Shown: positions 1 through 21,933 of the stretch, piece by piece
How positions within the stretch are numbered: position 1 is the first letter of the stretch
Layout of the letters: every line of letters starts with the position of its first letter
From: Rubrivivax sp.
GTDB taxonomy: Bacteria; Pseudomonadota; Gammaproteobacteria; Burkholderiales; Burkholderiaceae_C
DNA length: 38,691 nt
Assembly: GCA_039915715.1 (NCBI GenBank)
Contig: JBDSMV010000100.1
Location: forward strand, 1 to 38,691
Reading direction: 5' to 3'
Notes under the pieces: model-generated
The model's database searches: none
What the model saw: only the letters and a program-made list of their open reading frames with translations
What the model was told of the DNA's origin: nothing
Translations under genes and position numbers: made by a program

Positions 1-2116
1 GCAGCCACAACACGCTGCATTCGACGTTTGACAGCAGGCGCATCCAGATGTCGAAGACCTCGGGGGTGATCTTGTAGCTGTTGTTGAAGCAACAGAACAC
101 GAAGCCGGTCTGCGGCAGGCCGAGTTCAGAACGGCTGAAGGCGCGCGACGAAATGGCACGCGCCGCGTCGTTGCATTGGTAGCTGTCCGGCAGCCGCACG
201 ATCTGTTCGCTGAAGTGGGGAGTCAGGTCGTCGGGTACCGTGGTGGCGTCGGCCAGCAAGTAGTCCATCTGCGGCAAGCCGCTGGTGCCGGGAAATCCCA
301 AATAGGACACCTGCACCGGTGCCGCGCGGTGACTGAAGATGCCGATCCGGCCGTTGTGGGTGTAGCCCTTCAGGTCGATGGCGATGTCGATGCCGAGAGA
401 CCGCATCGTCGACGCAGCTTGCGCATCGGACTGATCCCGGATATCGACGAACCGGTCAAACGCCCGCTGCAGACGCTGCTGGTAACGGTCGCCGTTGAGC
501 GGTCCGTACGACAGGGCCACGCTTTCGAAACGCTTTTTGTCGAGCGATTCGATGAGTCCCGCGATCAGATGTGACGTGGCATGTTCGTGGAGATCGGCGC
601 TGACGAAGGCGACGCGGATGCGGCGCAGGTGGTCCGGTCGCAGTGCGGCTGTTCCGTCGCCGACGGCATCCGGGGCGACGGGCTTGGCAGTGCGGGGCTG
701 AAGCGCCGGGTCAACCTCGGCGACGAGGTCGACGACCAGGCCTGCGGCAAAGCTGCGGGCTGCCTGCAACTGCACGGCGGGGTCGTCGGTGACGGCAAGC
801 ATGACGAACGGCGTGGCCAGCGATCCGCCCTGCAACGCATCGTCGGTCAACTGCTTCGCGGCGGCTTCGCGCCCGGTCCAGTCGCACAGGGTCTGCTTCA
901 GGTAGAAAACGTTGCCCGCCTGGTAAGGCTGCTGTGAATCGAACGACAGTGATGCCTGGGCATCGGCAGCAGCTTCTGACTGTCGCCGCATGCGCATCCA
1001 CAACGCACTGCGGTTGGCGTAGGCCATCGCGGTTTCGCGAGGGGCGCACTGCGCGCGCGCAGCCACGGCCCGGTCGTAGGCCTCCATCGCCTGCGGCAGA
1101 TGGTCCAGTGCCGCCTCGGCCACACCCAGGTTGATCGCGGCCTGGACCAGACCGGGTTGCAGGCGCAATGCCTGGTGGTAGCAATCGATGGCGGCGGCGT
1201 ACTGGCGCTGCGCCGCCAGCAGCACGCCCATGCCGTTGTGCGTGTCGGCCCTTTCGGGTTGCAGCGCCAGAGAGCGCTGCAGATCGGTCTTGGCGCCGGC
1301 ATGGTGGCCGCGGGCGGTGCGCAGCGCGGCGCGGTGGGTCAGCGCTTCGGCATAGTCGGCCTCGAGCTCGATGGCGCGGCCGTAAGCTGCTTCGGCGTCA
1401 TGCAGCCGTTTGAGGTTCCACAGCGCCAGCGCCCGGGCGTTGTGCGCTGGCGCATGGGTCGGGGCCATTACCAGCACGCGGTCGAACTGTTGCAGCGCCT
1501 GTTGGTTCTGGCCCTGCCCCAGCCATGCGATGCCGAGGTTGTTGGCGGCTCGCAGATGACCGGGATCGCTGGCCAGGACCGTCTGAAAGTGCTGAACGGC
1601 CTGCGCCGTCTGTCCCAGCTCACGTTCGCAGATGCCGAGCCCCACTCGCGCGCCCAGGTCCTGCGGTTGCGTGGCGAGCACACCCGCAAATGCCGCGCGC
1701 GCGAGCTGCATGCGGCCTGCCTCCAGATTCAGCTCGCCCAGGGCCGCCAGAGTTGCAGCGTCGCCGCCGGTGAGTTCCACGCACTGTTGCAGGGCGTCGG
1801 CCGCACCGGCCACCTGCCCAAGGGCCCGACGCGCCGATGCCAGGTTGCGCCACGCCGGCGCCGTGCTCGGTTGCAATCGCACGGCTTGCTCGATCAACTC
1901 GGCCGCAGCAGCGGCGTCGTCGCTCTGCAGCCGTGCCACGCCCAGCATGTGCAGGGCGTCGAAGTTGCGGGGCTCTGCACGCAACACGTCCTCGTAGGCG
2001 GCGCAGGCGCCGGCCAGATCTCCGCCTTGATGCCGGCTGAAGGCGTGCCGGAGCAGGGACTGGGTGTCGGCAGCTTGTGAAGGCGGCGCGGCGGGCGTAT
2101 GGGAGTCCGTGATCAC
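1..2116 (-). CDS. TPR-containing GT41/SPINDLY-family O-GlcNAc transferase-like glycosyltransferase (3' end truncated by window edge)
   Basis: Not in the ORF track because it has no stop in the window. Manual translation from GTG 2116 gives MITDSHTP...AYEDVLRAEPRNFDALHMLGVARLQ (TPR repeats). Near the left edge the same frame reads PVQVSYLGFPGTSG..MDYLLAD...FSEQIVRLP.SYQ.ND...FVFCCFNNSYKITPEVFDIWMRLL..V..SVLWL, the hallmark GT41 motifs. Start codon uncertain. Confidence 0.9.
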   Translation of the reverse strand, partial: MITDSHTPAAPPSQAADTQSLLRHAFSRHQGGDLAGACAAYEDVLRAEPRNFDALHMLGVARLQSDDAAAAAELIEQAVRLQPSTAPAWRNLASARRALGQVAGAADALQQCVELTGGDAATLAALGELNLEAGRMQLARAAFAGVLATQPQDLGARVGLGICERELGQTAQAVQHFQTVLASDPGHLRAANNLGIAWLGQGQNQQALQQFDRVLVMAPTHAPAHNARALALWNLKRLHDAEAAYGRAIELEADYAEALTHRAALRTARGHHAGAKTDLQRSLALQPERADTHNGMGVLLAAQRQYAAAIDCYHQALRLQPGLVQAAINLGVAEAALDHLPQAMEAYDRAVAARAQCAPRETAMAYANRSALWMRMRRQSEAAADAQASLSFDSQQPYQAGNVFYLKQTLCDWTGREAAAKQLTDDALQGGSLATPFVMLAVTDDPAVQLQAARSFAAGLVVDLVAEVDPALQPRTAKPVAPDAVGDGTAALRPDHLRRIRVAFVSADLHEHATSHLIAGLIESLDKKRFESVALSYGPLNGDRYQQRLQRAFDRFVDIRDQSDAQAASTMRSLGIDIAIDLKGYTHNGRIGIFSHRAAPVQVSYLGFPGTSGLPQMDYLLADATTVPDDLTPHFSEQIVRLPDSYQCNDAARAISSRAFSRSELGLPQTGFVFCCFNNSYKITPEVFDIWMRLLSNVECSVLWL

Positions 2117-2152: not shown

Positions 2153-3856
2153 TTAGACGACCGCTTCGGCGGTCGCGTCGGGTGAGGGCAACGACAGCAC
2201 CTCTTCCAAGCTGGTGTCGCCCGTCCAGAACTTGCGCATTCCGTCGTGCTGCAGCGACCGGAAACCCGGGGTGTCGATGGCCAGCAGGCTGCGAGGCGAG
2301 AACGCGCCGCTGGACAGTTGCTGGCGCAGGGCGTCTGTGGTCGGCAGGAATTCGTGCACGCCAACGCGTCCGCGGTAGCCGCTGCCACCGCAGGCTGGGC
2401 AGCCGCGGGCCACGCGGCCCTGGAAGCCGGCCTGCAACAAGCCCTGGCGTTCTGCCGCGTCCAGCAGCCGCGGCGGTACATCGGACAAGCTTGCCGCAGT
2501 AGCGCACTGAGCACACAGGCGCCGGATCAATCGCTGCGCAATTACCCCGCGCACACTGGCCGCCAGCAGGAAGGGTTCGACCCCCATGTCGACCAGGCGT
2601 ACAAAAGCCGACGCGGCGTCGTTGGTGTGGAGGGTAGACAGCACCTTGTGACCGGTCAGCGACGCCTGGATCGCGATGCGCGCGGTTTCGGTGTCGCGGA
2701 TCTCGCCGATCATGATCGTGTCGGGGTCGTGCCGCAGGATCGCCCGCAACGCGGTCGGAAAACTGAAGCCGATGTCGGCCTGGACCTGAAATTGTGTGAC
2801 GCCGGGCAGTTGGTACTCCACCGGGTCTTCGACCGTCAGCACCCGGGTGTGCGCCAGGTCGGTAGCGGCCAGTGCCGCATACAACGTGGTGCTCTTGCCG
2901 GAGCCGGTCGGCCCGGTGACGAGGATGATGCCGTCGGCTGCGCCCAGCCAAGACTTCAACATTCTGCCGTGGTCGTCCTCCAGTCCCAGCGCATCGAGCC
3001 GAAAGCGACGGTGCTCGGTCTTCGGCAGCAGGCGCAGCACGGCGGACTCGCCGTGCACACCGGGTATCACCGACACCCGCACCTCGGTTTCGATGCCGGC
3101 CGCGCGGGTCGAGAAGCGTCCGTCCTGCGGCAGCCGGCGCTCGGCGATGTCGAGGCCTGCGATCAGCTTCAGGCGGCTGGTGACGGCGTCGAATTTGGTG
3201 CGAGGCTGGGTGTCGACATGGCGCAATTCGCCATCGACCCGGTAGCGGACGGCGAAGCTGTCTTCGCTGGGTTCGATGTGGATGTCGGATGCATTCAAGT
3301 CGGTGCCACGCGCCAGCATCGATGCCACCAGTTCAACGATCGGTGCGTCCTGGGCCAGCTGGCGCAGGTCGAGCATCGCGCCGGAGAGACCGGTACCGAG
3401 ATTGGTGGACGGAGCGTAAATCGATGCCAAGGCAGCGGTCATGTCCTGCCCGCTGCACAGCATGACTTCCACTGTTGCGCTGCCCGCCTGGCGTTCGACC
3501 TGTTCGATCAGTTCGGGCAGCAGCGGGTCGCGCGCCACCAGTCGGATCGATTCGTTGTTGTTCGGGCTCACAAAGGCCTGCCAGCGTTTGGCAAGTGCTT
3601 CGGGCAGTGCATAGGTCTCGGCCAGCGCAAGCGTGGCGCGGCTCGCAATTTCCGGCTGCTGCTCTCGGTGCCACAGCGGCAGGCCGAGCTGCCGCGAGAG
3701 CGCTTCGTACAGGGTCGATTCCGACAACAGACCGTGCCGCACCAGGATCGACCCCAGGCGTTGGCCGGTGGCACCTGCCGTCTGCTCTTCAAGTGCCCGG
3801 GTCAGGTCGGTGGCCGACATCGCGCCCCCATCGATCAACATCTGTCCGATCAGCAT
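2153..3856 (-). CDS. gspE: Type II secretion ATPase GspE/PulE with an MshEN-like N-terminus
   Basis: ASDIHIEP, LDIAERRLPQDGR, Walker A GPTGSGKSTT, TVEDPVE, LRHDPD.IMIGEIRD, TGH.VLSTLHTN and a CxxC...CxxC zinc motif. Start trimmed to ATG 3856 because the longer ORF runs through a terminator and the upstream gene. Confidence 0.95.
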   Translation of the reverse strand: MLIGQMLIDGGAMSATDLTRALEEQTAGATGQRLGSILVRHGLLSESTLYEALSRQLGLPLWHREQQPEIASRATLALAETYALPEALAKRWQAFVSPNNNESIRLVARDPLLPELIEQVERQAGSATVEVMLCSGQDMTAALASIYAPSTNLGTGLSGAMLDLRQLAQDAPIVELVASMLARGTDLNASDIHIEPSEDSFAVRYRVDGELRHVDTQPRTKFDAVTSRLKLIAGLDIAERRLPQDGRFSTRAAGIETEVRVSVIPGVHGESAVLRLLPKTEHRRFRLDALGLEDDHGRMLKSWLGAADGIILVTGPTGSGKSTTLYAALAATDLAHTRVLTVEDPVEYQLPGVTQFQVQADIGFSFPTALRAILRHDPDTIMIGEIRDTETARIAIQASLTGHKVLSTLHTNDAASAFVRLVDMGVEPFLLAASVRGVIAQRLIRRLCAQCATAASLSDVPPRLLDAAERQGLLQAGFQGRVARGCPACGGSGYRGRVGVHEFLPTTDALRQQLSSGAFSPRSLLAIDTPGFRSLQHDGMRKFWTGDTSLEEVLSLPSPDATAEAVV

Positions 3857-3983: not shown

Positions 3984-5678
3984 TTACTTGTTGGTTGCGT
4001 CCGCAGCGCGGGCGTAATCCGGGCCGTCGTCGCCTTGAGCAGACGACGATTCCTGGAAGTTGCCGGCACCCGGGTTGTAGATGTAGTTCTGCACTCGCAG
4101 CGACGAGCTGGCGGCGGTGATGCGCAGACGCGCATTGGCAGCCGTGTCACCAGGAGCACTGTACGTCGGCACCGCGGCGCTGGCGTTGGCGTTCATGGCG
4201 CCGTCGAGAGCCGACGAGGTGTAGTAACGCACTTCACGCGGCTTGAACGGGCCGTTCTTGCCCTGCACGTCGTTGACGACATCCAGCGAGGCGTTCGCGC
4301 CCAGCGTGCCGTCGGCCTTCAACACCTGGATCACCGGCGACACCGTCTGGGTCTCGTCGCTGTTGATCACACGGATCACGCTGTACCAGCCGCCCGAGGT
4401 GGCGCGGGCCACGTTCGGCACGTAGTTGCGAACGTCGATGCGAACACCGTTGGCCACCAAGGTGTAGATCGGGCCCGGGCAGACCGGGTTCGGCGCTTCC
4501 AGCGAGGCGGCGAACTTGGTCAACGAGCCGCCCGTGACGGCAAACACACTGGTCGGGATGACCTTGGCGCCAGTGGTGGCGTAGCACAGATAGGCGGGCT
4601 TGACTGGGTCGGTGGCGGTAGCACCGCGCAAGGCGATCAGGCCAGCATTAGAAACCGTAACCGTGGCCGTGGCGCCGTCGGCAGCGATGGTGCCGGCTTG
4701 CAGTGTGGTCGAGCAGTTGGCCAAGACGCTGACAAAGAAGCTGCCACCGTTGGCGGTGGTCAGGAACTTGCCACTCACATTGACGATCAGCGACTCTGCT
4801 TCAACCACGCCTGCACCAGTGCCTACGCTGGTGGCGAAGGCCGTGCCCTTGCTCGAGTACGGGTTGGTGCCATCCAGGTCGAACAAAACGGCGCGGTCAG
4901 TGATATTGATGGCACCGATGTTCAGCAGAGTGGTGCTAACGCCGGTAACGTCAGGAACGACCGGATTCCCACCCGCTCCAGCAGTAAACATCAAGCCGAG
5001 CGAAGGCAGCAGCACGTCGACTTTGCCCTTCTCGACGCCCACCGCGGCAGAGTAATTCTGCGAATCTTGCGGCTTGACGCTCAAAGCCACGCTTGCCTGC
5101 ACGATGGGAGTGGTATTGCTCAGGGGAGCGGCAGAGAAGTTGGAGTCGAACTCGACGCCAGCTGCATTCGTCAGCTTGACGGCCACGTTGACGGAGGCGA
5201 TGTCATTGCCGCAACCATTGCTCAGCGCAGGAGCGCCAAGGATCGTGCCGACCTTGGTGATCGACACCGGACCACCCGAACCCAACACGATTTGTGAGCC
5301 GACCGTGTAGTTCTGAGTAACGGTGAAGGTAGCGGTGATGGCCTTCTTGTCGGCACTCAGCGTTACCGTGCTCGGATTGAGCAACTGGGCGTTCGACGGG
5401 CTGCTCAGCGAGATATTTGCTGGAGCCGGCGCAATGGTGTACTCACCGCCGTTGGTCAAGGTCCAGGTGATCGAGAAGCTGTTCGGGTTGGCGACGGTGC
5501 CGGACAGCGGCAGGGCCAGCGCGTAGTTGATGGTCGGCGCGGTCAGGACGACCGCATCGGTGCCAAAAACTTCCGACGCGTAGTTCTTGTAAGAGGCCTG
5601 AATCACCCCCGCGCTGGCGGTGGTTGCAACCCCGGCAAACGCTGTGGCCAGCAATACGGAAAGTGCTTTCTGTTTCAT
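3984..5678 (-). CDS. Sec-exported Ala/Thr/Ser/Val/Gly-rich protein, putative S-layer protein / dedicated T2SS substrate (564 aa)
   Basis: Signal peptide MKQKALSVLLATAFAGVATTASA|G, GAGGA RBS before ATG 5678, beta-strand-rich small-residue composition, no His, 4 Cys, no recognisable catalytic motif. Has its own promoter and terminator and is embedded in the gsp cluster. The CDS is certain; S-layer function is inferred. Confidence 0.65.
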   Translation of the reverse strand: MKQKALSVLLATAFAGVATTASAGVIQASYKNYASEVFGTDAVVLTAPTINYALALPLSGTVANPNSFSITWTLTNGGEYTIAPAPANISLSSPSNAQLLNPSTVTLSADKKAITATFTVTQNYTVGSQIVLGSGGPVSITKVGTILGAPALSNGCGNDIASVNVAVKLTNAAGVEFDSNFSAAPLSNTTPIVQASVALSVKPQDSQNYSAAVGVEKGKVDVLLPSLGLMFTAGAGGNPVVPDVTGVSTTLLNIGAINITDRAVLFDLDGTNPYSSKGTAFATSVGTGAGVVEAESLIVNVSGKFLTTANGGSFFVSVLANCSTTLQAGTIAADGATATVTVSNAGLIALRGATATDPVKPAYLCYATTGAKVIPTSVFAVTGGSLTKFAASLEAPNPVCPGPIYTLVANGVRIDVRNYVPNVARATSGGWYSVIRVINSDETQTVSPVIQVLKADGTLGANASLDVVNDVQGKNGPFKPREVRYYTSSALDGAMNANASAAVPTYSAPGDTAANARLRITAASSSLRVQNYIYNPGAGNFQESSSAQGDDGPDYARAADATNK

Positions 5679-5781
5679 GAAAATCCTCATTTGTTTCAAG
5701 AGATGACATCTCAACAAGCACGCCGATTCACGAAGTGATTCGTCAGCGGCCGCTGCACCTGTTCGATGTGACAGCCGCCGC

Positions 5782-5809
5782 AGTATAGCGGGGGGTCGCA
5801 GCAGCGCAA
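5782..5809 (-). promoter_or_regulatory. Putative sigma70 promoter of the S-layer-like gene
   Basis: Minus strand TTGCGC (5809-5804) - 16 nt - TATACT (5787-5782), implying a ~95-nt 5' UTR. Confidence 0.6.
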
Positions 5810-5935: not shown

Positions 5936-8398
5936 TCACTTCGGCTTCAGCGTCTTTTGCAGTTCCTTCAAAATCTCGGGATCCGTGACCAACTTCGTGG
6001 TCGACGATCGTGTATCGGACACATCCGGATTGACAGCAGGAGCCGCCGGCGTTCGCGCGCCGGAGCTAGTCGATGGAGCACTGCTGAAATCCGGCCGCGT
6101 GATGATCGCACCCGAAGGTGCCAGCCGTTCCCCGGCTGGCGTTTCCGGAGACGTTTGCTTACCAGTTTGATCGATGCCGGGAAGTGGCGGCAGCACATAA
6201 GGCGTGGGCGGTGCCACGTTCTGCAACGGGTTGGCAGGTTGCGCGTTGCCCCGGAAGCTGTTCGGTGGGCGCAACTGCTGCGCCGCGGTGTCCGTGCTCC
6301 ATGAAAACTGGCCCTTGAACGCATTGGTGATCGCGCGGGCTTCGAATTCGTCGTCCAGCACATAGGGCGTGATCAGGACCACCAGTTCAGTGCGCACCCG
6401 CGTGACGTTGTTGCTCTTGAAGAGATAGCCGAACACCGGCACGTCCTTCAACAACGGCACGCCGGTGTCGGCATTGGTGGCCGTTTCCTGCATCAAGCCA
6501 CCCAGCAGCACGGTGGCGCCGTCGGTGACCGACAGCTTGGTGGTGATCCTGCGCGTGGCGATGGTGGGGGAGGCCGTGACCCCGGACAGCGTGGCGCTGG
6601 CGGAGCTGACTTCCTGTTCCACATCGAGGTCGATCCTGCCGCCGGCATGAATGACCGGCTTGACCTTCAGGATCACTCCGGTGGAGCGGTACTGGATCGA
6701 CTGCAGGATGCCGGCCTGCAAGCCCCCCGTCGTGCCGCCCGGAACGGTATTGCCCGCGATGGTGCCGGTGGTGGTTTGTTGAGAGGTCACCACCGGCACC
6801 TCGGAGCCGACCTGGATGGAAGCCGTTTCGCCATTGCGTGCCATCACGCTCGGGTTGGCCAGCACCCGCACCCGGCTGGTCGACGCCAGGGCGTTGAAAA
6901 CCGCGCGCGGCGACACGCTACCGACCCTGGAAATGACGGCTGACAGGCCGCCGATCGCGGTAGTGCCAAATGCGCCCAGGGTGCTGACATTGAAGTTGTT
7001 GCCGTCGACCCTAAACTGGTTGAGCATCCATTCGAAGCCCAGCTGTTCGCCGTCGTCGAGCCGGATCTCGGCCACCGTGACCGACACCAGCGCGCTGCGC
7101 GGCGGCCGGTCCAGCTCCTGCAGCAGTCCGAACCACTGCTGGTATTCGGTCGGGCTGCCCTGGATGATCAACGTGTTGCTGCTGGCATTGACGACCACCC
7201 GCGAGCGCACGGCGCCGGCCGCGCCAGGGACACCCGGTGCAGGGGTCATGACCTCTTGCAGTGTTTTGGCCAGATCGGATGCGTCGAGATTGCGCACGGC
7301 GTAAGTGAAGTACCCGGCACTGCCCCGCCCGCTGGCGGGTTGGTCGATGTCGGCGGCCCAGCGCAGCACATAGTTCAGGATCTCTTCGCTGCGCGTAAAC
7401 ACGATCACCGAGTTCAGCGGCGCTACCGGCAGCAAGATGATCGGTGCCTGGGCTTGGGCGGTGGTGCCCACCGCGTAACCCTGCGCCTGCATGATCTCGG
7501 CCAGCCGCTTGGCCATCTCATCGGCGGACCAGAACAGCGGTGCCAGGCGGGCGCTGACCCGGCCCCGCATGCTGGGCTGGTCGAGGAGCCGAATGGCCGC
7601 GATGCCGGCGGCCACGTCGTCGCTCTGGCCGCTCAGGATCAGCGCCTGCTCACCCAGGTCGTCCTGGATCGTCAGGCGGCGACCGAAAATCGTGCGCAGC
7701 GAGTTGATGATGGTCGCCGGGCTGACGGCCTCGAGCCCGACGATCTGAAACACCGGGCGCACGGCGGCCGGCACGTCGGGCAGCGAGCGTCCGCGCCGCA
7801 GCTCGGGCAGCAACCCGGTGGGGCCCGTCGCCGACGTGAACCGGATCAGCCCGTTGTATTCGGTCATCGCGACGCCGAACGACTTCAGCACCGACCGCGC
7901 GGCGTCGTAGAGCCCGGTGGCGGTCTGCGGCTTGCCGCTCTTGAGGCTGACGATCTCCTTGCGCTCGGCCACTGCCGGGTCGACCGAGATGTTGCGCTTG
8001 AGGATGCTGCCGAACACGGTGTCGATGAACACCGGCAGCGGCAGCTGCTCCAGCGCGACGGCGGTTTCCAGCGTCGGGTCGGCCGGCGGAGGCGTGCCGG
8101 CTGGCGACGGCAGCGCCACATCGCTGCGCGCGCGCGGCGCCGGCGGGGTCTGGAACATGCGGTCGGCGCCGGTCCGGGCGGGCTCGGCCTCGACTTCGCC
8201 GGCCAGTGCCGCGCTGTTGGGCGACGCTTGACCTCCGAGCGCTTTCTCGTAAGGAGCCACATCCCGTTTTGGCAGGATCTGCGGCGGCCGCGTGGCACAC
8301 GCGCCCAGCGCCAGCAAGAGCAACGCTGCCAACCAGCGGGCATCGGCACGTCGGTAGGGCTTGCCGACGCGGTCGCCGGACGGGGCTAGAAAAGTCAT
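5936..8398 (-). CDS. gspD: Type II secretion secretin GspD, probably a lipoprotein
   Basis: N-domain repeats (LILSG..DDV, VV.NASSNTLIIQG...LD.P), secretin core VLANPSVMARNGETASIQVG.EVP, TG.ILKVKP.I, GVPLLKDVPVFGYLFK...RTELVVLITPYV. Lipobox LGAC after a hydrophobic stretch. Confidence 0.93.
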   Translation of the reverse strand: MTFLAPSGDRVGKPYRRADARWLAALLLLALGACATRPPQILPKRDVAPYEKALGGQASPNSAALAGEVEAEPARTGADRMFQTPPAPRARSDVALPSPAGTPPPADPTLETAVALEQLPLPVFIDTVFGSILKRNISVDPAVAERKEIVSLKSGKPQTATGLYDAARSVLKSFGVAMTEYNGLIRFTSATGPTGLLPELRRGRSLPDVPAAVRPVFQIVGLEAVSPATIINSLRTIFGRRLTIQDDLGEQALILSGQSDDVAAGIAAIRLLDQPSMRGRVSARLAPLFWSADEMAKRLAEIMQAQGYAVGTTAQAQAPIILLPVAPLNSVIVFTRSEEILNYVLRWAADIDQPASGRGSAGYFTYAVRNLDASDLAKTLQEVMTPAPGVPGAAGAVRSRVVVNASSNTLIIQGSPTEYQQWFGLLQELDRPPRSALVSVTVAEIRLDDGEQLGFEWMLNQFRVDGNNFNVSTLGAFGTTAIGGLSAVISRVGSVSPRAVFNALASTSRVRVLANPSVMARNGETASIQVGSEVPVVTSQQTTTGTIAGNTVPGGTTGGLQAGILQSIQYRSTGVILKVKPVIHAGGRIDLDVEQEVSSASATLSGVTASPTIATRRITTKLSVTDGATVLLGGLMQETATNADTGVPLLKDVPVFGYLFKSNNVTRVRTELVVLITPYVLDDEFEARAITNAFKGQFSWSTDTAAQQLRPPNSFRGNAQPANPLQNVAPPTPYVLPPLPGIDQTGKQTSPETPAGERLAPSGAIITRPDFSSAPSTSSGARTPAAPAVNPDVSDTRSSTTKLVTDPEILKELQKTLKPK

Positions 8399-8895
8399 GG
8401 TGCTCGATCAGATGTCGACTGGGGGTCGATCAGGTACAGCGTTCGGGAGCGTCCGCGCGCACTGCGGACCACGAGATGGGTGTCGGATATCGAGAGGATG
8501 CGGTCCCCGTCGGGCAGCTTATCGCCCTTGCGCAGCTCCATGGGCTTGTGGCCCGTGGCCGTCAGCAGCGCATAACGGTCGGACCCGCGCACCACCAGCG
8601 CCGACAGGCGCCACAGCACAGGCGGCTCGGTCACCGCCGGCGCGGGCGCCCCGTCGGGTCCAAGCGGGCCGCGGTCGAGGTTCAGCGGGTCGACGGCGGC
8701 GATCCGCCGCGCCAGCTCCTGGGGCGAGGCGGCATCGGTGTCGGCCGCAGCCGAGGCAGCGGCCCGATTGGCTGCGCCAGCGCCCTCCACCGTTGCCGGC
8801 GTCTGCTGCTGCCACCACCAACCGAGTGCGGCTGCCGCCAGCCAGATCGGCAACGCCACAACCCATCGGGCCAGGCTGGCGGACCAAGGCGGCAT
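8395..8895 (-). CDS. GspC-like inner-membrane connector (TM + HR-like domain, no PDZ)
   Basis: One N-terminal TM, an Ala-rich linker and WRLSALVVRG..RYALL...LRKGDKLPDGDRILSI..THLVV, resembling the GspC-HR/PilP fold. ATGA overlap with gspD. Confidence 0.55.
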   Translation of the reverse strand: MPPWSASLARWVVALPIWLAAAALGWWWQQQTPATVEGAGAANRAAASAAADTDAASPQELARRIAAVDPLNLDRGPLGPDGAPAPAVTEPPVLWRLSALVVRGSDRYALLTATGHKPMELRKGDKLPDGDRILSISDTHLVVRSARGRSRTLYLIDPQSTSDRAP

Positions 8896-9614
8896 CAGCG
8901 TCCACCCCTGCGGGCGGGAGCCGGCACGGCACCCCTCACTGGCGCCGACGCTGTCGGCAGCGAGGCGACCTGGGGTTGCAGCAAAACCGGCACCGACACC
9001 GTCATCTGCAGCTGCCGCGACTGCCCCGACACGGTCAGCGCGTCGATCCGTGCAAGTTGACCGCCGCCCTCGATCGCCACCAAGGTTTTCTCCAGCACGC
9101 CGGGCAGCAGCACCACCGTCACGCCGGCCCGCACGCGGACGATGTCGGCGTCGCTTACTGCGCTCACGGGTTCAACGCCTGGGCCAGCCACAGAAAACCG
9201 TCCGCCGGTAACGGTGCTCCCGATCGCCCCCGGGGCTTGCGACGGAGGAAGCTGCGAAGCCATCAGGCCGATGACGGGGCGACCGCCGGCGGCGCTGTCT
9301 GGCAGCACCCGTCCCAACCAGTCGGCCAACCGGGCCTGCGCTTGCGCCTGCGAAGGTGCCGTCCAGAGGCGCTCGCGCAAGGCCTGCGCTTCTTGGTTGG
9401 CCGCCGTCGTGCGGGCGGCCCAATCGTCTGACGCACTGGCGCCGGCCAGCACCGTTGCCCGTGCCCTGGCGCTGGCCAGCTCGGCGAGCATTGACTGATG
9501 AGCCGCCATCGCGCGCAGAGCCCCTTCACCCAGCACGATCAGCGCCACGACGCCCAGCAGCCACAACAGCCGCGGGTTGATCTGAAAGCGCGATGCGGAT
9601 TCCGGCATGACCAT
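8895..9614 (-). CDS. GspM-like inner-membrane platform protein
   Basis: Single N-terminal TM, coiled segment and ferredoxin-like C-terminal pattern. Lies between the GspL-like and GspC-like genes. Start could be 9608. Confidence 0.55.
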   Translation of the reverse strand: MVMPESASRFQINPRLLWLLGVVALIVLGEGALRAMAAHQSMLAELASARARATVLAGASASDDWAARTTAANQEAQALRERLWTAPSQAQAQARLADWLGRVLPDSAAGGRPVIGLMASQLPPSQAPGAIGSTVTGGRFSVAGPGVEPVSAVSDADIVRVRAGVTVVLLPGVLEKTLVAIEGGGQLARIDALTVSGQSRQLQMTVSVPVLLQPQVASLPTASAPVRGAVPAPARRGGR

Positions 9615-9617
9615 CGT

Positions 9618-10730
9618 CTAGCGGCCCGGGTTCAACAACCGGCCCGGGGATGGCTCCGCGACGACCCGGGTGCTGAGCGCGATCGAGTTGCCGGCGCCTT
9701 CCTGGCCGACTTGTAGCGGCCCGAGTCCAGGCACGCTTTCGAGTCGGCGGGTGACCTGCAGCAAGGGCAGCGCGTTGTTGCCGGGCAAGGCCAGCGTCAT
9801 CTTCAGCTGGCCGTCGGTGTAAGCCCACTCCCGCAGTCTGACCGCGGTGTCGGTTGCGGCCGGCGACCCTGGCGCCAGGTTCGCGACCGGTGCGCCAGAG
9901 GTCGCCAACCGCTCGAAGACGCCGCTTTCGGCCACCCTGGCCAGCAATTCGAGCTGGGACGTGGCGGGTACCAGGCGGCGCAACGCCCCGAGCTCGGTGG
10001 CGGCGCGTTGGTAGGTGGCGCGCGCAAGCAGGCTGCTTTCGCGGCCGCCTTTCAATGCTTGCAATCGATCGTTTTCCTCTTGCAGCTGGCGGCGGGCCTG
10101 CAGGTGAGCGCCGGCACCAGCGGCCACCACGGCCCCGAGCGCGACCAGAGCGGCTTTCCAGCCCCAGCCTTTCCAGGGGTCGGCGGCCGGCAGGTTGTCC
10201 GCAGGCTGCCAGCGGACGTTGCCCCGCGGCAGCGGCGCCGCGTCCACCGCGGCCGGCAGTGGATGCGCGTCGGGGTCGAGTCCGCAGCCGCGCACGAAGG
10301 CGAGCCAACCGGCATCGGTGGCCCCATCGGCGAAGAATCGGCTGTGGGTGAGATCGCCGGTCGGACTCCAACATTGACCCTCGGCGCCGTCCTGCCGGCG
10401 CACGATCCGCAGGCCCGAGCCTGGCGCTTCCAATGCAGGCTCGGCCCAGGCACCACGCTGGCGTGGGCTGTGCACAGCGGAGTCGATCGGCCACATCCAG
10501 GCGGCCACCATGCCGTCCTGCTGCTGCCGCCAGACGAATCCGAACAAGCCGCCATGCTGGTACTGCGTCAACTGCAAGCGCAGGGCGCCGGCGAGTTGAC
10601 GGCGCACGACTCCCGGCATCGGCAGCCGAACGAAGGTGGCGTCGCGACGGCGCACCACTGCGCGAGGCGCGCGCAGGTCACCCCATATGGAGCGGGAGCG
10701 GAACGAAGCGGGGCTGACAGCGGTGCTCAT
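9618..10730 (-). CDS. GspL/PilN-like platform protein
   Basis: Cytoplasmic N-domain, central TM (WGWKAALVALGAVVAAG), coiled coil and periplasmic domain. ATG 10730 overlaps the gspK stop (TGATG). Confidence 0.6.
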   Translation of the reverse strand: MSTAVSPASFRSRSIWGDLRAPRAVVRRRDATFVRLPMPGVVRRQLAGALRLQLTQYQHGGLFGFVWRQQQDGMVAAWMWPIDSAVHSPRQRGAWAEPALEAPGSGLRIVRRQDGAEGQCWSPTGDLTHSRFFADGATDAGWLAFVRGCGLDPDAHPLPAAVDAAPLPRGNVRWQPADNLPAADPWKGWGWKAALVALGAVVAAGAGAHLQARRQLQEENDRLQALKGGRESSLLARATYQRAATELGALRRLVPATSQLELLARVAESGVFERLATSGAPVANLAPGSPAATDTAVRLREWAYTDGQLKMTLALPGNNALPLLQVTRRLESVPGLGPLQVGQEGAGNSIALSTRVVAEPSPGRLLNPGR

Positions 10731-11779
10731 CACTGAATGACGCCGAACGGCGACCGGATCGCTTCGGGCGCCGCGGCGGGCGCAGCAGTTGGCAACATCT
10801 GAACCTCGTCCGCCCGGGGCAGGGGCTCGGTGCGCATCATGCGCACGCTGTACTCGACATGCCAGGGTCCTTCGCCAAGATCGAACGTGGCCGTCAGACT
10901 GAGGGCCTGGCACCAGGCAACCGATGCCGGGCAGACCGTCACCAGCGTCGATGGCGACGGCAGCGTCATGAACCGGCCGGCCGCCAGGAAACTGCCGCCG
11001 GCCAGGTTGGGCAGCGATTCTATGGCCACCGGTGCGCCGGCCGGCCGCAACGCCAGCAGCGTGCGGGCGGTGATTAGGTCGGTGCCGCCAAGGGCAGCCA
11101 GCACTGGCGCGCTGACGGTGTTGCGGTTGACGGTGCCGACGTTGGTGATGCTGGTGTTGGCGATCACGCGTTGCAGCGTCGCTTCGTCCAGATCGCGCCA
11201 GCGTGCGATGCGTCTCAGCTCCATCGGTGAGACCAGCGGCGCGTTGCGCGGTGGCGGCAGCTTCGCCTCGGCATAGTCCGCCGCCTCGGCGCCGTTGAGG
11301 CGACGCAGCGAGTCGGCGTCGGCATAGTCGAGCAGCGAATCGACCAGACCCAGAATCTGCTCGGGCGGCAGGCCGAGCACGGCCAGCAGCGCCTGCAGGT
11401 CGGGCTCGGTGGCGCGGCGAAGGCTCATCAGACCGGCGGCGTCCTGCCAGCGCACGAAGGTGCCGGCGGCGCTGCGGTACCAGCGGCCGTCGATCTCGAT
11501 TTCACCCAGGCGGCTGCCGCGTCGGTATCTCGTGCCCATCAGCACCAGCGCTTCGGCGACCGTGTTGTGCACCTGCACCGTTGCCTGCTGCTCCTGGCGC
11601 GACGCCAGCACCAGCGCACGCAACTGGTCGCTGCGGTGCGACATCACCGCCACGCCGACCGCCACGATGGCCAGGGTAACGATCGTTACCGGCAGCACGA
11701 AGCCGGCCGCCCGCCTGCGGTGATGGCGAGGGTCTCCCGGCGACAACCGGGAGCAGCCACGGCGCGGGGCTGCAGACAT
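10730..11779 (-). CDS. gspK: Minor pseudopilin GspK
   Basis: G|FVLPVTIV (no Glu5, typical of K), QDAAGL.SL, LLDYADAD..RRLNGAE..DY...PRN.PL....EL..I. ATG 11779 overlaps the gspJ stop. Confidence 0.88.
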   Translation of the reverse strand: MSAAPRRGCSRLSPGDPRHHRRRAAGFVLPVTIVTLAIVAVGVAVMSHRSDQLRALVLASRQEQQATVQVHNTVAEALVLMGTRYRRGSRLGEIEIDGRWYRSAAGTFVRWQDAAGLMSLRRATEPDLQALLAVLGLPPEQILGLVDSLLDYADADSLRRLNGAEAADYAEAKLPPPRNAPLVSPMELRRIARWRDLDEATLQRVIANTSITNVGTVNRNTVSAPVLAALGGTDLITARTLLALRPAGAPVAIESLPNLAGGSFLAAGRFMTLPSPSTLVTVCPASVAWCQALSLTATFDLGEGPWHVEYSVRMMRTEPLPRADEVQMLPTAAPAAAPEAIRSPFGVIQ

Positions 11780-12465
11780 CAGTTGGGCATCAGGTCGCCG
11801 AACGGCGAGGTGGGCTCGGGCAACACCCAGGCGCTGGCACGCGGCGCCATCAGCAACGTCATCGGCCGCGCCTGGTCCTGAAACTGCAAGGTGAGCTGGA
11901 TCAGCGAAGGGATCGTCTTCGGCGGGCCCCCGTTGCCGGTCGGTGTGGCGGACAACGGCGTGGTGGTCGACGGCGCGGGCCAGCTGTCGTGCAGGACGCC
12001 ACTGGCGTCGGCATAGCGGAATTCGGCCAGTTGCAGACGCCACGGGTAGGTCGTGGCAGGCTCGCCGGGGTGTTCGATGCGCAGAGTCAGGCTGGGGTCG
12101 CCGCTCTTGAACTGCACCGAAGTCGCGAGCGGGGCCGAACCCAAACCGGGCATCAGTGACGACGCCGTTTCGCTGATGAAGCCGTGGCGGTCGCCGGTGA
12201 AGACCAGCCCTTCGCGGTCGGGGGCCGTCTGCAGCTCACTCACCAGTTGCCGCATCGCCATCGAGAACTGCTGCTGCTGGCGAATCTGGTCGGCGGCGGC
12301 CGTCAACCGTTGTTGCGCTTGCAGCGACTGGAACCAGCCGGCCATCAAGACCGAAAACAAGAGCGCAAAGATCACCACGGTGACCAGCACCTCCAGCAGC
12401 GAAAAGCCGGCCTGGGTGGCGACCTGTCGCGTTGGCGGCGGCGCCTTCGGGGCGGCGCGCTTCAC
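11779..12465 (-). CDS. gspJ: Minor pseudopilin GspJ
   Basis: Class III signal QAG|FSLLEVLV; C-terminal SWP...IPSLIQL. GTG start overlaps the gspI stop (GTGA). Confidence 0.8.
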   Translation of the reverse strand: MKRAAPKAPPPTRQVATQAGFSLLEVLVTVVIFALLFSVLMAGWFQSLQAQQRLTAAADQIRQQQQFSMAMRQLVSELQTAPDREGLVFTGDRHGFISETASSLMPGLGSAPLATSVQFKSGDPSLTLRIEHPGEPATTYPWRLQLAEFRYADASGVLHDSWPAPSTTTPLSATPTGNGGPPKTIPSLIQLTLQFQDQARPMTLLMAPRASAWVLPEPTSPFGDLMPN

Positions 12466-12941
12466 CCTGGCGTCACCGGCGCAAAGCCCGGTGGTCCCTT
12501 GGACTTTTCGCGCACCTGACGGTACCCCGCGACATCGCGGTGCGTCACCAGGGGCTCGCCGCGGGACTCCAGATCGTCGACGCTGAAGCGCACGTCGTAC
12601 AAGGTGATGCGGTAAGGCCCGAGTCCCATCGGATGGCGGGCCTGGTCGCTGCTGCTGCGTTCGGCCACTGTCTGCCAGCGGTACCGATGGGTGGGGGTAA
12701 GCCATTCGCCGCCGGGGCGCTCGGCCGGGTTCAGGCTGGCAGCCAGTTCGGTGACGTTGCGTTCGATCTCGACTTCCTGCTGCACCTGTACGGCTCGCGA
12801 AGCCGTCTGCAAGGTCTGGCCGGCCCAGACGAACAGGGCCGCACCGAAGCCGGAGATGACCACCAGCGCCACCACCACCTCGATCAGCGACAACCCGCGC
12901 TGAGCCCGCGCGCCGCCATGCCACGCCGCCGCGTGTGTCAT
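12462..12941 (-). CDS. gspI: Minor pseudopilin GspI
   Basis: QRG|LSLIEVVVALVVI prepilin motif; size and position in the pseudopilin run. Confidence 0.8.
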   Translation of the reverse strand: MTHAAAWHGGARAQRGLSLIEVVVALVVISGFGAALFVWAGQTLQTASRAVQVQQEVEIERNVTELAASLNPAERPGGEWLTPTHRYRWQTVAERSSSDQARHPMGLGPYRITLYDVRFSVDDLESRGEPLVTHRDVAGYRQVREKSKGPPGFAPVTPG

Positions 12942-13372
12942 GCCACCTCGGTCACGCCGATGGCGCAGGTGGCGCGCGCCACCGTGATGCGCCAGCGCTG
13001 GCCGGTGCTGGCCTGGGTGAACAGCACTGACCCCGCTGCGCAGGCTGTGGAATGCCAGAAACGGGCCGCGGTCTCGACCGTGGCGGTCCAGCCCGGCGGG
13101 ATGTCGATCGGAGGGTTGCCATCGGGCAGCGCCAGCGCCAGCGCCTTCTGGTCCAGCACCAGATCGATGCCGAGCGTGGCGACACGGGCTGGCAAACCCT
13201 GTGCGCTGCTGCCGAGTTGTTGCAGGTCGGCGTCGGCGAACGCCGTGTCCAGTCGGCGCGCCATGTTCGGCAGCGCCACTGCCGCCAGCAGCGCAACGAT
13301 CGCCAGCGCGATCAGCGTCTCAAGCAGCGTGAAGCCGGTCAGCCTGCCGGCCCCGAGAGGGCCCGTGCGCAT
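12938..13372 (-). CDS. gspH: Minor pseudopilin GspH-like
   Basis: TG|FTLLETLIALAIVALLAAVALP. Start set at ATG 13372; stop overlaps the gspI start. Confidence 0.75.
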   Translation of the reverse strand: MRTGPLGAGRLTGFTLLETLIALAIVALLAAVALPNMARRLDTAFADADLQQLGSSAQGLPARVATLGIDLVLDQKALALALPDGNPPIDIPPGWTATVETAARFWHSTACAAGSVLFTQASTGQRWRITVARATCAIGVTEVA

Positions 13373-13382
13373 GGTCGAAGGC

Positions 13383-13904
13383 TCAGCGCTGGGCTGGGAT
13401 GGTGTTGCCGACGCGACCGATGTCAGCGTCGTTGCCTTCACCACCTGCCCTGCCGTCGGCCCCCAGCGAAACGATCGTGAATGCATGGCCGTTGTCGCCG
13501 GGGATCTGGTATTGGTAGGTGTTGCCCCAAGGGTCCAGCGGCACGGCTTCATCCAGATACGGTCCCTTCCAGCGCTGGCGCAACGTCGGGTCGGAAGGTG
13601 GGGTCACGAGCATCGCCAGGCCCACGTCGCCTGGCGGATAGCTGCCCAGGTCCAGGCGCATGGTCTCGATGGCGCCGCGCAGTAATTTGACCTGCACGCC
13701 TGCGGTCTGGACCTTGGAGGAATCGACCTTCGAGAACAGTCGTGGGCCCACCAGGCCGGCAATCAAGCCGATGATCACCAGCACCACCAGCATCTCCAAC
13801 AACGTGAAGCCGGCCGCGCGAAGGCGTTCGGGCCGGTTCAGCGGGGTCTGGCGCTGAGCGGCGCGGCGGCCGGCAGCAGGGATCAGACGGGTGGGCGAAG
13901 GCAA
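13383..13904 (-). CDS. gspG: Major pseudopilin GspG
   Basis: AG|FTLLEMLVVLVIIGLIAGLVGP, LDLGSYP, WKGPYL, DPWG..YQY, SLGADG..GGEG.DADIG. Probable TTG start 3 nt after the gspF stop (uncertain). Confidence 0.93.
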   Translation of the reverse strand: MPSPTRLIPAAGRRAAQRQTPLNRPERLRAAGFTLLEMLVVLVIIGLIAGLVGPRLFSKVDSSKVQTAGVQVKLLRGAIETMRLDLGSYPPGDVGLAMLVTPPSDPTLRQRWKGPYLDEAVPLDPWGNTYQYQIPGDNGHAFTIVSLGADGRAGGEGNDADIGRVGNTIPAQR

Positions 13905-13906
13905 GT

Positions 13907-15148
13907 TCAGAACCGGATGTCGTTGAGCGATGTGATGGCGAGCACCACGCCCACGATGATGGCCGCGATGATACCGCCCAGCACCAGGATCGATGCCGGC
14001 TCGATCAGGGCCACCAGGCGCTTGCGCTGGCGCCGGTTCTGCTCCAGCGCATGCCGCGCCACGTGGCCCATCATCGGCCCGACCTGCCCGGTCTGCTCGC
14101 CCACCCGCACCATGCTCAGCGCGCTGACCGGCAGCAGGCGCCGTTCGGCGAAGCTGCGCGACATGGTCTCGCCGCGGCCGATGTCGCCGATAGCCCCACG
14201 CAGGCTGCCACGCACGTCCGCCAGCCCGACCGCACTGGCTGTCAGGTCCAGCGCAGTCAGGATCGGCACCCGGCTCTGCAGCATCAGCGACAGCATGCCG
14301 GTCCAGCGCGACAACTCCTGCTGGCGGATCCACGTGCCCAACACGGGCAGGCCGGCCAATCCGCTGCGGATGCGGTCACCGCCCAGCAGCCGCCACACCG
14401 TCACTGCGGCGGCGACCACCACGCCGATGGCCAGCGCGATCGCGGTGCCGTGGGCGTTGACAGCCTCGCCGGTGGCCATCACCACGCTCGACAGCCACGG
14501 CAACTCGGCGCGGCGTCCTGCCAGCAGCGACGAGAAGCGCGGCACCACGAACGAGAACACGAACAGCACCGCGCCGATGCCAGCGGTGATCAGGATCGCC
14601 GGGTACACCAGCGCTTCGGAGGTTTCGGCGCGCACCTGTTCGTCGAACTCCATCTGCTCGGCCGCCCGCCCCAGTGCATTGGCCAGGTCGCCGGTCGATT
14701 CGCCGGCCGAGATCAGCGCCACGACATACGACGGCAGGGCGAGCGGCCCCGCGCTGACCTGGGCCCGCACCGCCGCCGAGAAGCGCTCACCACCCAGCAC
14801 CTGCGTCAGCACCGCTGTCAGCGCCGGCTCCAGGTGCAGGCCACGCCGGCTCTGGATCAAGGTGCGCAGCGACTCTTCCAGCGTCACCCCGGCTGCCAGC
14901 AGCGAAGCCAGCTCCCGCACGGTCAGCACCAGGGCAACGCGGCCGGCACTTTCGCGGCGTTGCCAGGCCGTGGCACCCGAGCCCGCAGGCGGATTGCCGC
15001 TGGCATTGCGGCGCGGCGCGGCGCGCATCGACACCGGTGTGAGACCCCGGCGCAGCAACTGCGCGACGGCGTCGGCTTCGGCGTCGGCTTCTTCGAACCC
15101 GCGTTGCGTGCTGCCGTCGGCGCCCAGGGCCTGGTACTCGAACTGCAT
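13907..15148 (-). CDS. gspF: Type II secretion inner-membrane protein GspF
   Basis: F.YQAL..DG...G..EA, RELASLL.AG..L, GE.TG.L, ALVYP..., VVPRF, M.RVGEQTG, LIEP. GAGGA RBS. Confidence 0.93.
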   Translation of the reverse strand: MQFEYQALGADGSTQRGFEEADAEADAVAQLLRRGLTPVSMRAAPRRNASGNPPAGSGATAWQRRESAGRVALVLTVRELASLLAAGVTLEESLRTLIQSRRGLHLEPALTAVLTQVLGGERFSAAVRAQVSAGPLALPSYVVALISAGESTGDLANALGRAAEQMEFDEQVRAETSEALVYPAILITAGIGAVLFVFSFVVPRFSSLLAGRRAELPWLSSVVMATGEAVNAHGTAIALAIGVVVAAAVTVWRLLGGDRIRSGLAGLPVLGTWIRQQELSRWTGMLSLMLQSRVPILTALDLTASAVGLADVRGSLRGAIGDIGRGETMSRSFAERRLLPVSALSMVRVGEQTGQVGPMMGHVARHALEQNRRQRKRLVALIEPASILVLGGIIAAIIVGVVLAITSLNDIRF

Positions 15149-15204: not shown

Positions 15205-16320
15205 TCAGTGTGCAGCGGTTGCAGGCAGCGGTGTGAGGTAATCATCGATCAGGTAGGGCGCCTGCAGTGCGAGCGTGGCTGCGGCATGGACCAGCAGATA
15301 AGTGGTGGCAATGGCGATTCTGAGTCCCTTCTGCTGCACGGCGGCGCGCACCAGCATCGGCATCAGCAGCACCTCGACGAAGCCGAGCGCCGAAGACAGC
15401 CGTGCGCTCAGGATCAGGAAGTCGTAGAACCCCAGGCGCAGCCCCAGGCTGGCGGCGAACAGGCCGACCATCAGCCGATACACGCGGGTCTGCAGCAATG
15501 CCGGCGGCGCCGCCAGTACGAACAGCAGCAGCAGCAGCTCGGCGCGGATGTTGGCAGGCGCCAGCAGGCTGCGATCGCCGCTGTATTCCTCGTCCACCGC
15601 GTAGACGCTGAGCCGCCCCAGTGCGCTGATCACGTCCAACTGCATGAAGGCCCGCGCCGCCAGCACCGAAAGCGCGGCGATGACCACGCACCACAGCAGC
15701 AGCCGCAGTCGCGTGGGCCTGGGCGTTGTCAGGTGCAGCAGGCGTGCCCCCACCAGCAGGAACACTGCCGTGGCATGCATGCAGGCCGCCGCCACCACCG
15801 CCGCGGCGGTCTTCCACAGCGGCAGCCGCCCAGCCGGGATCAGGGTCAGCATCGCCAGTGCGAAGGCCATGCCCAGGCCTTGGCGGATCTGCATCAGCTG
15901 CTGCAGCAGGAAAAAGCTGCCGAGGTAGTAGGGGGCGATCGCCGGCAGGCTCAAACCGACCCGACGCGCTGCGATCGCCAGGAACCAGAAGGTCAGCAGC
16001 GAGTAGACGAAGAACAGCGCCACCGGTCCGAGTCCGATGCCGTTCAGCACCCAGCTCAGCAGCCCGAAGCCCCACTCCATGCCGAAGCTGCCGTAGTAGC
16101 CGAGCGGGTCTGAAGGAAAGTTCAACGTCTGCGCGAAGGCATCGATGTAGGTGTCGGTGTCGCGGGTGGCGCCACGCCACGCCACGGCCAGCATCACCGG
16201 CAGGAACAGCAGCAGCCAGGCAGGATGCGGCCGGCGCACGCGCCAGGCCCAGGCAGGGCGCAGCGAGGATGGAGTCTGGGTTGTAGCCATGCGCGAGGGG
16301 TGCGGAGGCGCCGGACTCAA
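15205..16320 (-). CDS. EpsG-family polysaccharide polymerase (Wzy-like)
   Basis: About 10 TM segments; motifs RG...D..TY, EWGF, QIRQGL, H.TA. TTG start overlaps the wecB stop (alternative ATG 16290). Confidence 0.75.
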   Translation of the reverse strand: MSPAPPHPSRMATTQTPSSLRPAWAWRVRRPHPAWLLLFLPVMLAVAWRGATRDTDTYIDAFAQTLNFPSDPLGYYGSFGMEWGFGLLSWVLNGIGLGPVALFFVYSLLTFWFLAIAARRVGLSLPAIAPYYLGSFFLLQQLMQIRQGLGMAFALAMLTLIPAGRLPLWKTAAAVVAAACMHATAVFLLVGARLLHLTTPRPTRLRLLLWCVVIAALSVLAARAFMQLDVISALGRLSVYAVDEEYSGDRSLLAPANIRAELLLLLFVLAAPPALLQTRVYRLMVGLFAASLGLRLGFYDFLILSARLSSALGFVEVLLMPMLVRAAVQQKGLRIAIATTYLLVHAAATLALQAPYLIDDYLTPLPATAAH

Positions 16321-17480: not shown

Positions 17481-17508
17481 CGAAGGCAGGGGTGATGGCA
17501 GCACGGGG

Positions 17509-18522: not shown

Positions 18523-18538
18523 GGTGCCGACCCATGCG

Positions 18539-19885: not shown

Positions 19886-19912
19886 GGGCGCGCGCGCAAC
19901 GCCAACGCGGTC

Positions 19913-20728: not shown

Positions 20729-20772
20729 CGTCGCCAGGGCCGCGCCACCGGCGCGCCGGCGTCACAACCGGG

Positions 20773-21930: not shown

Positions 21931-21933
21931 GGC

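What the first reader, a model, noticed from the sequence alone, without database searches (positions are those of the whole stretch)
3984..5678. Orphan-looking 564-aa secreted protein, probably a novel S-layer family member
Seen: clean Sec signal peptide; dominated by A/T/S/V/G/N; alternating beta-strand patterns; four Cys that could form two disulfides, fitting periplasmic folding before T2SS export; no RTX, autotransporter, SLH or PEP-CTERM motif; own promoter, RBS and terminator. Inference: an abundant structural protein such as an S-layer or sheath subunit.
Basis: partly seen in the sequence, partly recalled or inferred. Interest (0 to 1): 0.8.

Follow-up and report, generated by a model that had tools for sequence, protein, structure and literature searches.

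The report
Slr4-like S-layer protein with dedicated exporter

Summary
It is not an orphan: 66 homologs at 39-73% identity, and 16 of 16 related loci lie beside type II secretion genes. AlphaFold predicts three beta-sandwich domains; the last resembles the tetrameric ASRT/TM1070 fold. Profile comparison links the family over nearly its whole length (hhalign 99%, E 1.6e-20) to a sister family some of whose members pass the Pfam Slr4 cut-off; the protein itself does not hit Slr4. Best reading: a highly expressed, T2SS-exported S-layer subunit of a divergent Slr4-like subfamily in Burkholderiales, likely forming a square lattice. No lattice, export or expression was shown. Side finding: 25 secreted proteins from other bacteria (11 proteases) end in exactly four copies of the last domain, predicted to pack as one unit. 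This may be a lattice-mimicking display tag, but co-occurrence with a matching S-layer gene was mixed and this genome has none. Ordinary kind of system, new subfamily, one testable lead.

The parts
3984..5678 (-). Predicted S-layer subunit gene, 564 aa; mature 541 aa, 54.6 kDa, pI 5.1
5610..5678 (-). Sec-type signal peptide, residues 1-23 (by eye)
   Evidence: A21, A23, G24 invariant in 64 of 64
5088..5609 (-). Domain 1, about residues 24-197, predicted Ig-like beta-sandwich; C156
   Evidence: best Z 8.2, rmsd 3.2, 126 aligned, pilin domain; not distinctive
4449..5087 (-). Domain 2, about residues 198-410, predicted beta-sandwich; C322, C365, C400
   Evidence: (Z 6.6-6.7)
4023..4448 (-). Domain 3, about residues 411-552, ASRT/TM1070-like beta-sandwich; predicted four-fold node
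   Evidence: (1nc7 Z 10.2, rmsd 3.1, 107 aligned; 2ii7 Z 7.8, rmsd 4.1, 99 aligned)
5684..5688 (-). Ribosome-binding site GAGGA
5782..5809 (-). Sigma-70-like promoter motif TTGCGC-N16-TATACT (predicted)
   Evidence: same motif in 11 of 14 related loci; below the scan's threshold
5679..5776 (-). Conserved leader of about 100 nt; possible 5' hairpin, structure not supported by covariation
   Evidence: no Rfam match at gathering score
3933..3962 (-). Intrinsic-terminator-like hairpin, 13 pairs, U tail
5936..8398 (-). gspD secretin directly upstream
   Evidence: Pfam Secretin; TIGR02517 below cut-off
8395..15148 (-). gspF, G, H, I, J, K (Pfam hits) and three genes without Pfam hit in the L, M, C positions (names inferred from order)
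2153..3856 (-). gspE ATPase directly downstream, behind the terminator
2..2116 (-). TPR + GT41 glycosyltransferase, cut by the contig end; link to the S-layer untested

Best explanation
The gene likely encodes a highly expressed S-layer subunit that is predicted to be exported by the type II secretion system whose genes surround it, and it likely tiles the outer membrane as a square lattice. Shown: ORF, signal-peptide pattern, position between gspD and gspE, conserved upstream motif and terminator, family of relatives always beside gsp genes, remote homology to a family that reaches Pfam Slr4. Inferred: Sec transit, two disulfides (156-400 and 322-365) formed in the periplasm, export through the dedicated secretin, its own strong promoter with a terminator that keeps gspE far below it. 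Predicted: three beta-sandwich domains, the third tetramerising like ASRT/TM1070 to make one four-fold node of a p4 lattice, domains 1-2 making the other contact and the outer-membrane anchor (which domain faces the cell is unknown).
For: Synteny: 16 of 16 related loci beside gsp genes, gspD directly upstream in 13 of 16; of 13 other genomes (of 150) with the closest secretin type, 12 show a family or sister-family gene in the cluster (12 fetched, one seen in L019, one stretch ended at the contig edge). The same layout is reported for slr4 and npdA. Homology: A2 vs A4 hhalign 99.3%, E 1.6e-20, 425 columns; A1 vs A4 93.5%, E 2.4e-7, 249 columns; 2 of 30 tested proteins pass the PF19526 cut-off and 32 of 77 carry its precomputed label; the L060 protein scores 171 bits on A2 and 174 on A4 over its full length; P0001 scores 17.5 bits on A4 against a maximum of 2.1 for 500 shuffles. 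Atlas: feature score 0.97, 22 of 30 hits are clusters with Slr4 on part of their members (10-25% in the three rows shown), TM 0.53. Expression signature rank 5 of 2228 with a hand-made codon score, among a phasin-like protein, a porin-like protein and ribosomal proteins recognised by eye. Model pLDDT 88, pTM 0.79. Four tandem copies of domain 3 in P0168 fold with pTM 0.81; TM1070 and ASRT are tetramers. Slr4 is p4 by TEM. Single copy in the genome.
Against: No lattice, export, abundance or localisation was measured. P0001 and all 64 members of A1 miss PF19526 even at E<=1; only 1 of 74 remote homologs hits it, below cut-off. The Slr4 and NpdA reference sequences were never compared directly. 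No solved S-layer appears among the 50 rows shown in either fold search. The gene is patchy: 21 of 401 genomes of the family, absent from 2 of 3 other genomes of its genus searched. The p4 symmetry is borrowed from a remote relative.
Confidence: 0.85

Rival explanations
1. A T2SS-exported, non-crystalline surface or matrix protein (adhesin or lectin) whose tetramer-forming last domain binds a cell-surface sugar.
For: Ig-like domains match Gram-positive pilins and adhesins best; ASRAH domains were proposed to bind sugars; the same domain is used on many other secreted proteins.
Against: Those fold matches are generic (Z about 8 or less, TM by query under 0.26); full-length homology to Slr4-like proteins; own promoter-like motif, terminator and high-expression codons; a dedicated T2SS cluster around one gene.
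Confidence: 0.09
2. Subunit of a sheath, filament or tube (nanopod-like) rather than a cell-covering lattice.
For: Relatives are Sphaerotilaceae-type bacteria, a group that includes sheathed genera (recalled); Slr4 coats filaments and vesicles and NpdA forms nanopods.
Against: Named carriers (Roseateles, Pelomonas, Niveibacterium, Polaromonas) are not known as sheathed (recalled); in Slr4 and NpdA tubes are secondary to the S-layer.
Confidence: 0.04
3. A secreted enzyme or a porin.
For: None beyond the signal peptide.
Against: No catalytic family in Pfam or NCBIfam, no PDB sequence match, beta-sandwich rather than barrel model, no terminal aromatic residue.
Confidence: 0.02

Closest known systems
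Slr4 (EAR28894) of Pseudoalteromonas tunicata, Pfam PF19526 (PMC7821379)
   Same: Sec signal peptide, 55-59 kDa, directly downstream of a T2SS cluster, no other domain; remote profile homology through the sister family A4.
   Different: Below Pfam detection; soil and freshwater Burkholderiales rather than marine Gammaproteobacteria; our model is three beta-sandwiches whereas the paper's I-TASSER model was a beta-helix; no lattice shown here.
Remote slr4 homolog and spsD operon of Piscinibacter sakaiensis (bioRxiv 2025.11.11.687616)
   Same: Related host group, S-layer secretion operon; mutants there improved conjugation.
   Different: Its sequence was not seen, so it may belong to this subfamily or to the 470-aa sister family.
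NpdA of Delftia acidovorans and Paracidovorax citrulli (PMC3110197, PMC10765051)
   Same: About 52 kDa, signal peptide, beside a 12-gene gsp cluster, tetragonal lattice, Betaproteobacteria.
   Different: Reference sequence not obtained. A second secretin-linked family (A6), which I take for NpdA-like from recall only, aligns with this family in the signal peptide alone (27 columns).
Aeromonas VapA / AvsA S-layers
   Same: T2SS-linked, p4 (VapA, PMC11410804), three predicted beta-sandwich domains (AvsA, bioRxiv 2025.04.15.648961).
   Different: No sequence or structure comparison was made; no Aeromonas name appeared among the named hits.
ASRAH superfamily: ASRT (2ii7), TM1070 (1nc7), DUF5719 (PMC2739507)
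   Same: Fold of domain 3; conserved Asn at the matching place; tetramers, and tandem dyads or tetrads in secreted proteins.
   Different: The hallmark Trp of strand 1 is not at the matching place; the parts of the paper read list amidase-fused tetrads of Chloroflexi and actinobacterial lipoproteins, not S-layers or protease fusions.

Membership tests
Slr4 (PF19526) | Scores above the Pfam gathering cut-off (25 bits) | tested here: not met
   0 of 64 A1 members at E<=1
Slr4 (PF19526) | Remote full-length homology to proteins that pass the cut-off | tested here: met
Slr4 (PF19526) | Gene adjacent to a dedicated T2SS cluster, Sec signal peptide | tested here: met
   feature
Slr4 (PF19526) | p4 lattice on the cell, lost in the knockout; most abundant protein | not testable with these tools
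   needs EM and proteomics; codon score only suggests high expression
NpdA | BLAST-detectable similarity to WP_011797163 | tested here: inconclusive
   reference not obtained; the candidate family A6 matches only in the signal peptide, but its identity as NpdA is recalled
NpdA | Linked 12-gene gsp cluster, signal peptide, about 52 kDa | tested here: met
   feature
NpdA | SDS-resistant oligomer, nanopods | not testable with these tools
   bench test
ASRAH domain (domain 3 only) | Eight-stranded beta-sandwich of ASRT/TM1070 type | tested here: met
   Z 10.2, rmsd 3.1, 107 aligned; Z 10.7, rmsd 2.6, 100 aligned for a repeat unit
ASRAH domain (domain 3 only) | Conserved Asn at the end of strand 2 (N32 of TM1070) | tested here: met
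   N439 invariant; range offset 4..115 to 411..552 puts N32 on 439; residue-level alignment not seen
ASRAH domain (domain 3 only) | Conserved Trp at the start of strand 1 (W7 of TM1070) | tested here: not met
   the same offset gives I414; the invariant W431 lies elsewhere. Hence 'ASRAH-like', not filed as a member
ASRAH domain (domain 3 only) | Homotetramer | tested here: inconclusive
   only indirect: natural four-repeat P0168 folds with pTM 0.81
RsaA-type (RTX, T1SS), SLH-anchored, autotransporter, PEP-CTERM | Family motif or Pfam domain | tested here: not met
Aeromonas VapA/AhsA/AvsA | Sequence or structure similarity to VapA | not tested
   no reference sequence or model on hand

The most novel reading that the evidence does not exclude
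The last domain is the four-fold node of Slr4-type square lattices, and bacteria have turned it into a display tag: a single chain of four tandem copies mimics the node and plugs proteases, beta-propellers and LRR proteins into the S-layer, a lattice-insertion route for surface display in Gram-negative bacteria.
Probability: 0.25. Interest if true: 0.78.

Novelty: new member of a known kind. Interest (0 to 1): 0.42.

Why it matters
It extends T2SS-exported Slr4-like S-layers to unannotated proteins of soil and freshwater Burkholderiales that Pfam misses, and offers a structural reason for the square lattice (a tetramer-type last domain) in place of the published beta-helix guess for Slr4. S-layer loss improved conjugation in P. 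sakaiensis, so spotting such genes is useful for making relatives tractable. If the four-repeat tails insert into the lattice, they would be a natural, portable surface-display tag and would say how enzymes ride on Gram-negative S-layers.

Tried and rejected
Pfam, NCBIfam and PDB sequence searches of the protein were blank. Genome searches with PF19526 found 0 of 301 and 0 of 400, and no control rang, so they say nothing. A third homolog search with the wider alignment A2 added only 3 proteins. No solved S-layer was listed in fold searches; this does not exclude one. NpdA sequence not obtained: supplements unreadable, plasmid collection blank. Sixteen plus four weaker secretin loci held no member of this family (0 of 19; the twentieth stretch was G148). 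Earlier findings of the scan: none. Four-repeat proteins: none in this genome (87% complete), none among 301 genomes of the order (the one clear match was a single-domain S-layer gene), none confirmed among 101 of the family of G148 (the weak G1156 match was not examined). P0138 and P0169 gave two segments but are single domains split by an insertion and were dropped from the repeat count. L004 was in the promoter alignment by mistake (its gene is cut) and is left out of the count. My notebook says N17 and 11 of 11 for the promoter; the correct figures are N16 and 11 of 14. I first took W431 for the ASRAH Trp; the offset check rejects that.

Full report
Observation. The window is contig C195 of an 87% complete, 3.86 Mb genome; named relatives are Burkholderiales (Roseateles, Pelomonas, Rubrivivax, Niveibacterium, Polaromonas). 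The ORF 5678-3984 gives 564 aa. The cysteines co-vary: C156 and C400 are in 64 of 64 aligned relatives, C322 and C365 are lost together in 17, which suggests pairs 156-400 and 322-365 (not checked in the model's coordinates). The promoter was missed by the consensus scan but TTGCnn-N16-TATACT stands about 130-145 nt upstream in 11 of 14 related loci, followed by a conserved leader of about 100 nt. A hand-made codon score ranks the gene 5th of 2228 ORFs. 'Orphan' is wrong: 66 other proteins at 39-73% identity, 252 representatives with a profile, 21 of 401 genomes of the family.

Context. The gene lies between gspD and gspE of a complete type II secretion cluster, downstream of polysaccharide genes and upstream of a TPR-GT41 glycosyltransferase. 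All 16 related loci lie beside gsp genes; gspD is directly upstream in 13, two contigs begin inside the gene, one is divergent. Searching from the secretin instead, 13 of 150 genomes have a close, near full-length match; 12 of these show a protein of this family or of a 470-aa sister family in the cluster. This is the layout reported for slr4 (PMC7821379) and npdA (PMC10765051).

Structure. AlphaFold2 gives pLDDT 88, pTM 0.79: three beta-sandwich domains. Domains 1 and 2 give only generic Ig-like matches; domain 3 matches TM1070 (Z 10.2, rmsd 3.1, 107 aligned) and ASRT (Z 7.8, rmsd 4.1, 99 aligned), both tetramers (PMC2739507). By range offset the ASRAH Asn maps to invariant N439, while the ASRAH Trp does not map to a Trp, so I call the domain ASRAH-like.

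Relation to known S-layers. The protein misses Pfam Slr4. The sister family (A4, 57 sequences chosen from the 77 hits) reaches it: 32 of 77 carry the precomputed label, 2 of 30 rescanned pass the cut-off. The wide alignment A2 (55 sequences, single-domain-3 proteins of 480-592 aa picked) aligns with A4 over 425 columns at 99.3%, E 1.6e-20; the narrow A1 over 249 columns at 93.5%; one protein (L060) scores about 170 bits on both profiles end to end. The Atlas points the same way. So it works like Slr4 and is a remote homolog, but fails the Pfam membership test, and Slr4 itself was not compared. NpdA could not be tested directly. A different family behind weaker secretin matches (A6, 10 proteins) looks NpdA-like from recall only and shares just the signal peptide with A2. 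A preprint on Piscinibacter sakaiensis already reports a remote slr4 homolog in an spsD operon whose mutants take up plasmids better; its sequence was not seen.

Mechanism. Shown: gene anatomy, synteny, homology. Inferred: strong own transcription, Sec transit, disulfide formation, export by the surrounding T2SS, a terminator that holds gspE well below the cargo. Predicted: domain 3 forms a four-fold node of a p4 lattice. Confidence 0.85 for S-layer subunit, about 0.7 for p4.

Side finding. Among the best 150 profile hits, 26 proteins carry repeats of domain 3; 25 have exactly four at the C-terminus and one is a fragment. Eleven of the 25 bear protease domains (trypsin-like, S8, M6, M10/M12B, C1), others RCC1, fn3, NHL or BACON. 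P0168, a signal peptide plus four repeats, folds with pTM 0.81, which implies packed domains, each ASRT-like. 100 of 103 units match one S-layer-like protein (P0192) best, median 54% identity, and the 100 units of the complete proteins form one clade (FastTree support 0.87) inside 128 single domains (rooted on P0001, and sampled by one search). In G1190 a propeller plus four-repeat gene directly follows gspD-gspE in the S-layer cluster itself. Against the plug idea: only 1 of 5 S-layer carriers searched had one; the G1190 units match their own S-layer domain at only 25-33%, ranks 24-52 of 64-117; G716 (100% complete) has several such proteins yet no full-length A2 match, no A4 match, no S-layer gene in the 17 kb around its closest secretin, and only a weak N-terminal A6 match; this genome has none; and ASRAH tetrads on amidases were described in 2009 as probable sugar binders. 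A self-contained sugar-binding anchor or secretion tag explains the data as well. I give lattice insertion 0.25.

Literature seen. PMC10765051: parts 2-4 of 7 and passages. PMC7821379: parts 2-3 of 7. PMC2739507: parts 1-2 of 3. PMC3110197, PMC11410804, PMC12175726, bioRxiv 2025.11.11.687616, 2025.04.15.648961 and 2024.05.28.596244: passages only. Ten searches showed no paper linking an ASRT-like domain to S-layers or describing four-repeat tails as lattice tags; the library lacks most subscription papers, and unread supplements (ortholog lists of the NpdA and Slr4 papers, the P. sakaiensis tables, the S-layer catalogue of 2024.05.28.596244) may already list this subfamily.

Verdict. A real, well-supported S-layer candidate; new member of a known kind (T2SS-exported, Slr4-like), not a new family in principle. 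Interest 0.42, raised above ordinary by the structural reading of the lattice node and the four-repeat lead.

Noticed in passing
P0144, P0151, P0153, P0155, P0158, P0160, P0162, P0163, P0168 and 16 more; L063:341-3427, L064:2782-5151: Secreted proteins with varied N-terminal cargo that end in exactly four tandem copies of the S-layer's last domain.
   Followed up: yes
G1190:C348:3075-5876 (L087, L095): Beta-propeller plus four-repeat gene directly after gspD-gspE inside an S-layer T2SS cluster.
   Followed up: partly
G716 contigs C26, C182, C205, C216, C333, C334: Several proteins with diverged repeats of the domain (four in three of them, three detected in one) in a genome with no detected S-layer gene of this family; a 152-codon frame at C26:25167 holds a single copy.
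   Followed up: partly
L060:787-2202 (G148:C29): S-layer-like protein after gspD that scores equally on both subfamilies, bridging them.
   Followed up: yes
L048-L052: The same secretin type paired with a 470-aa Slr4-like gene placed before gspG, order gspG-K...D-E-F: cargo and gene order vary around one T2SS type.
   Followed up: partly
L071, L072, L075-L082, L084: A second family of 490-600 aa, mostly four-Cys proteins directly behind another secretin type, probably NpdA-like (recalled); its N-terminus has a short VPY...VVNT motif like the repeat units (hhalign not significant).
   Followed up: partly
window 5679-5776: Leader sequence conserved between relatives more strongly than the flanking DNA; no Rfam match; possible mRNA-stabilising or regulatory element.
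   Followed up: partly
window 2-2116 (-): TPR + GT41 glycosyltransferase after gspE; a similar TPR gene follows gspE in L002. Could glycosylate a surface protein.
   Followed up: no
window 15205-23889 (-) and 24042-25190 (+): Polysaccharide cluster (wza-, wzz-, FkbM methyltransferase, flippase, glycosyltransferase, UDP-GlcNAc epimerase, EpsG/wzy-like; divergent GT4 WecA-like gene) running straight into gspF; may make the glycan that anchors the coat.
   Followed up: no
L003 and L012 (one MAG): Two different family members (64% and 41% to P0001) with near-identical upstream DNA on two contigs of one genome: strain mixture or variant alleles.
   Followed up: no
L006, L007, L009, L010, L011: About 1.2 kb between the S-layer terminator and gspE, absent in this window; content not identified.
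   Followed up: no
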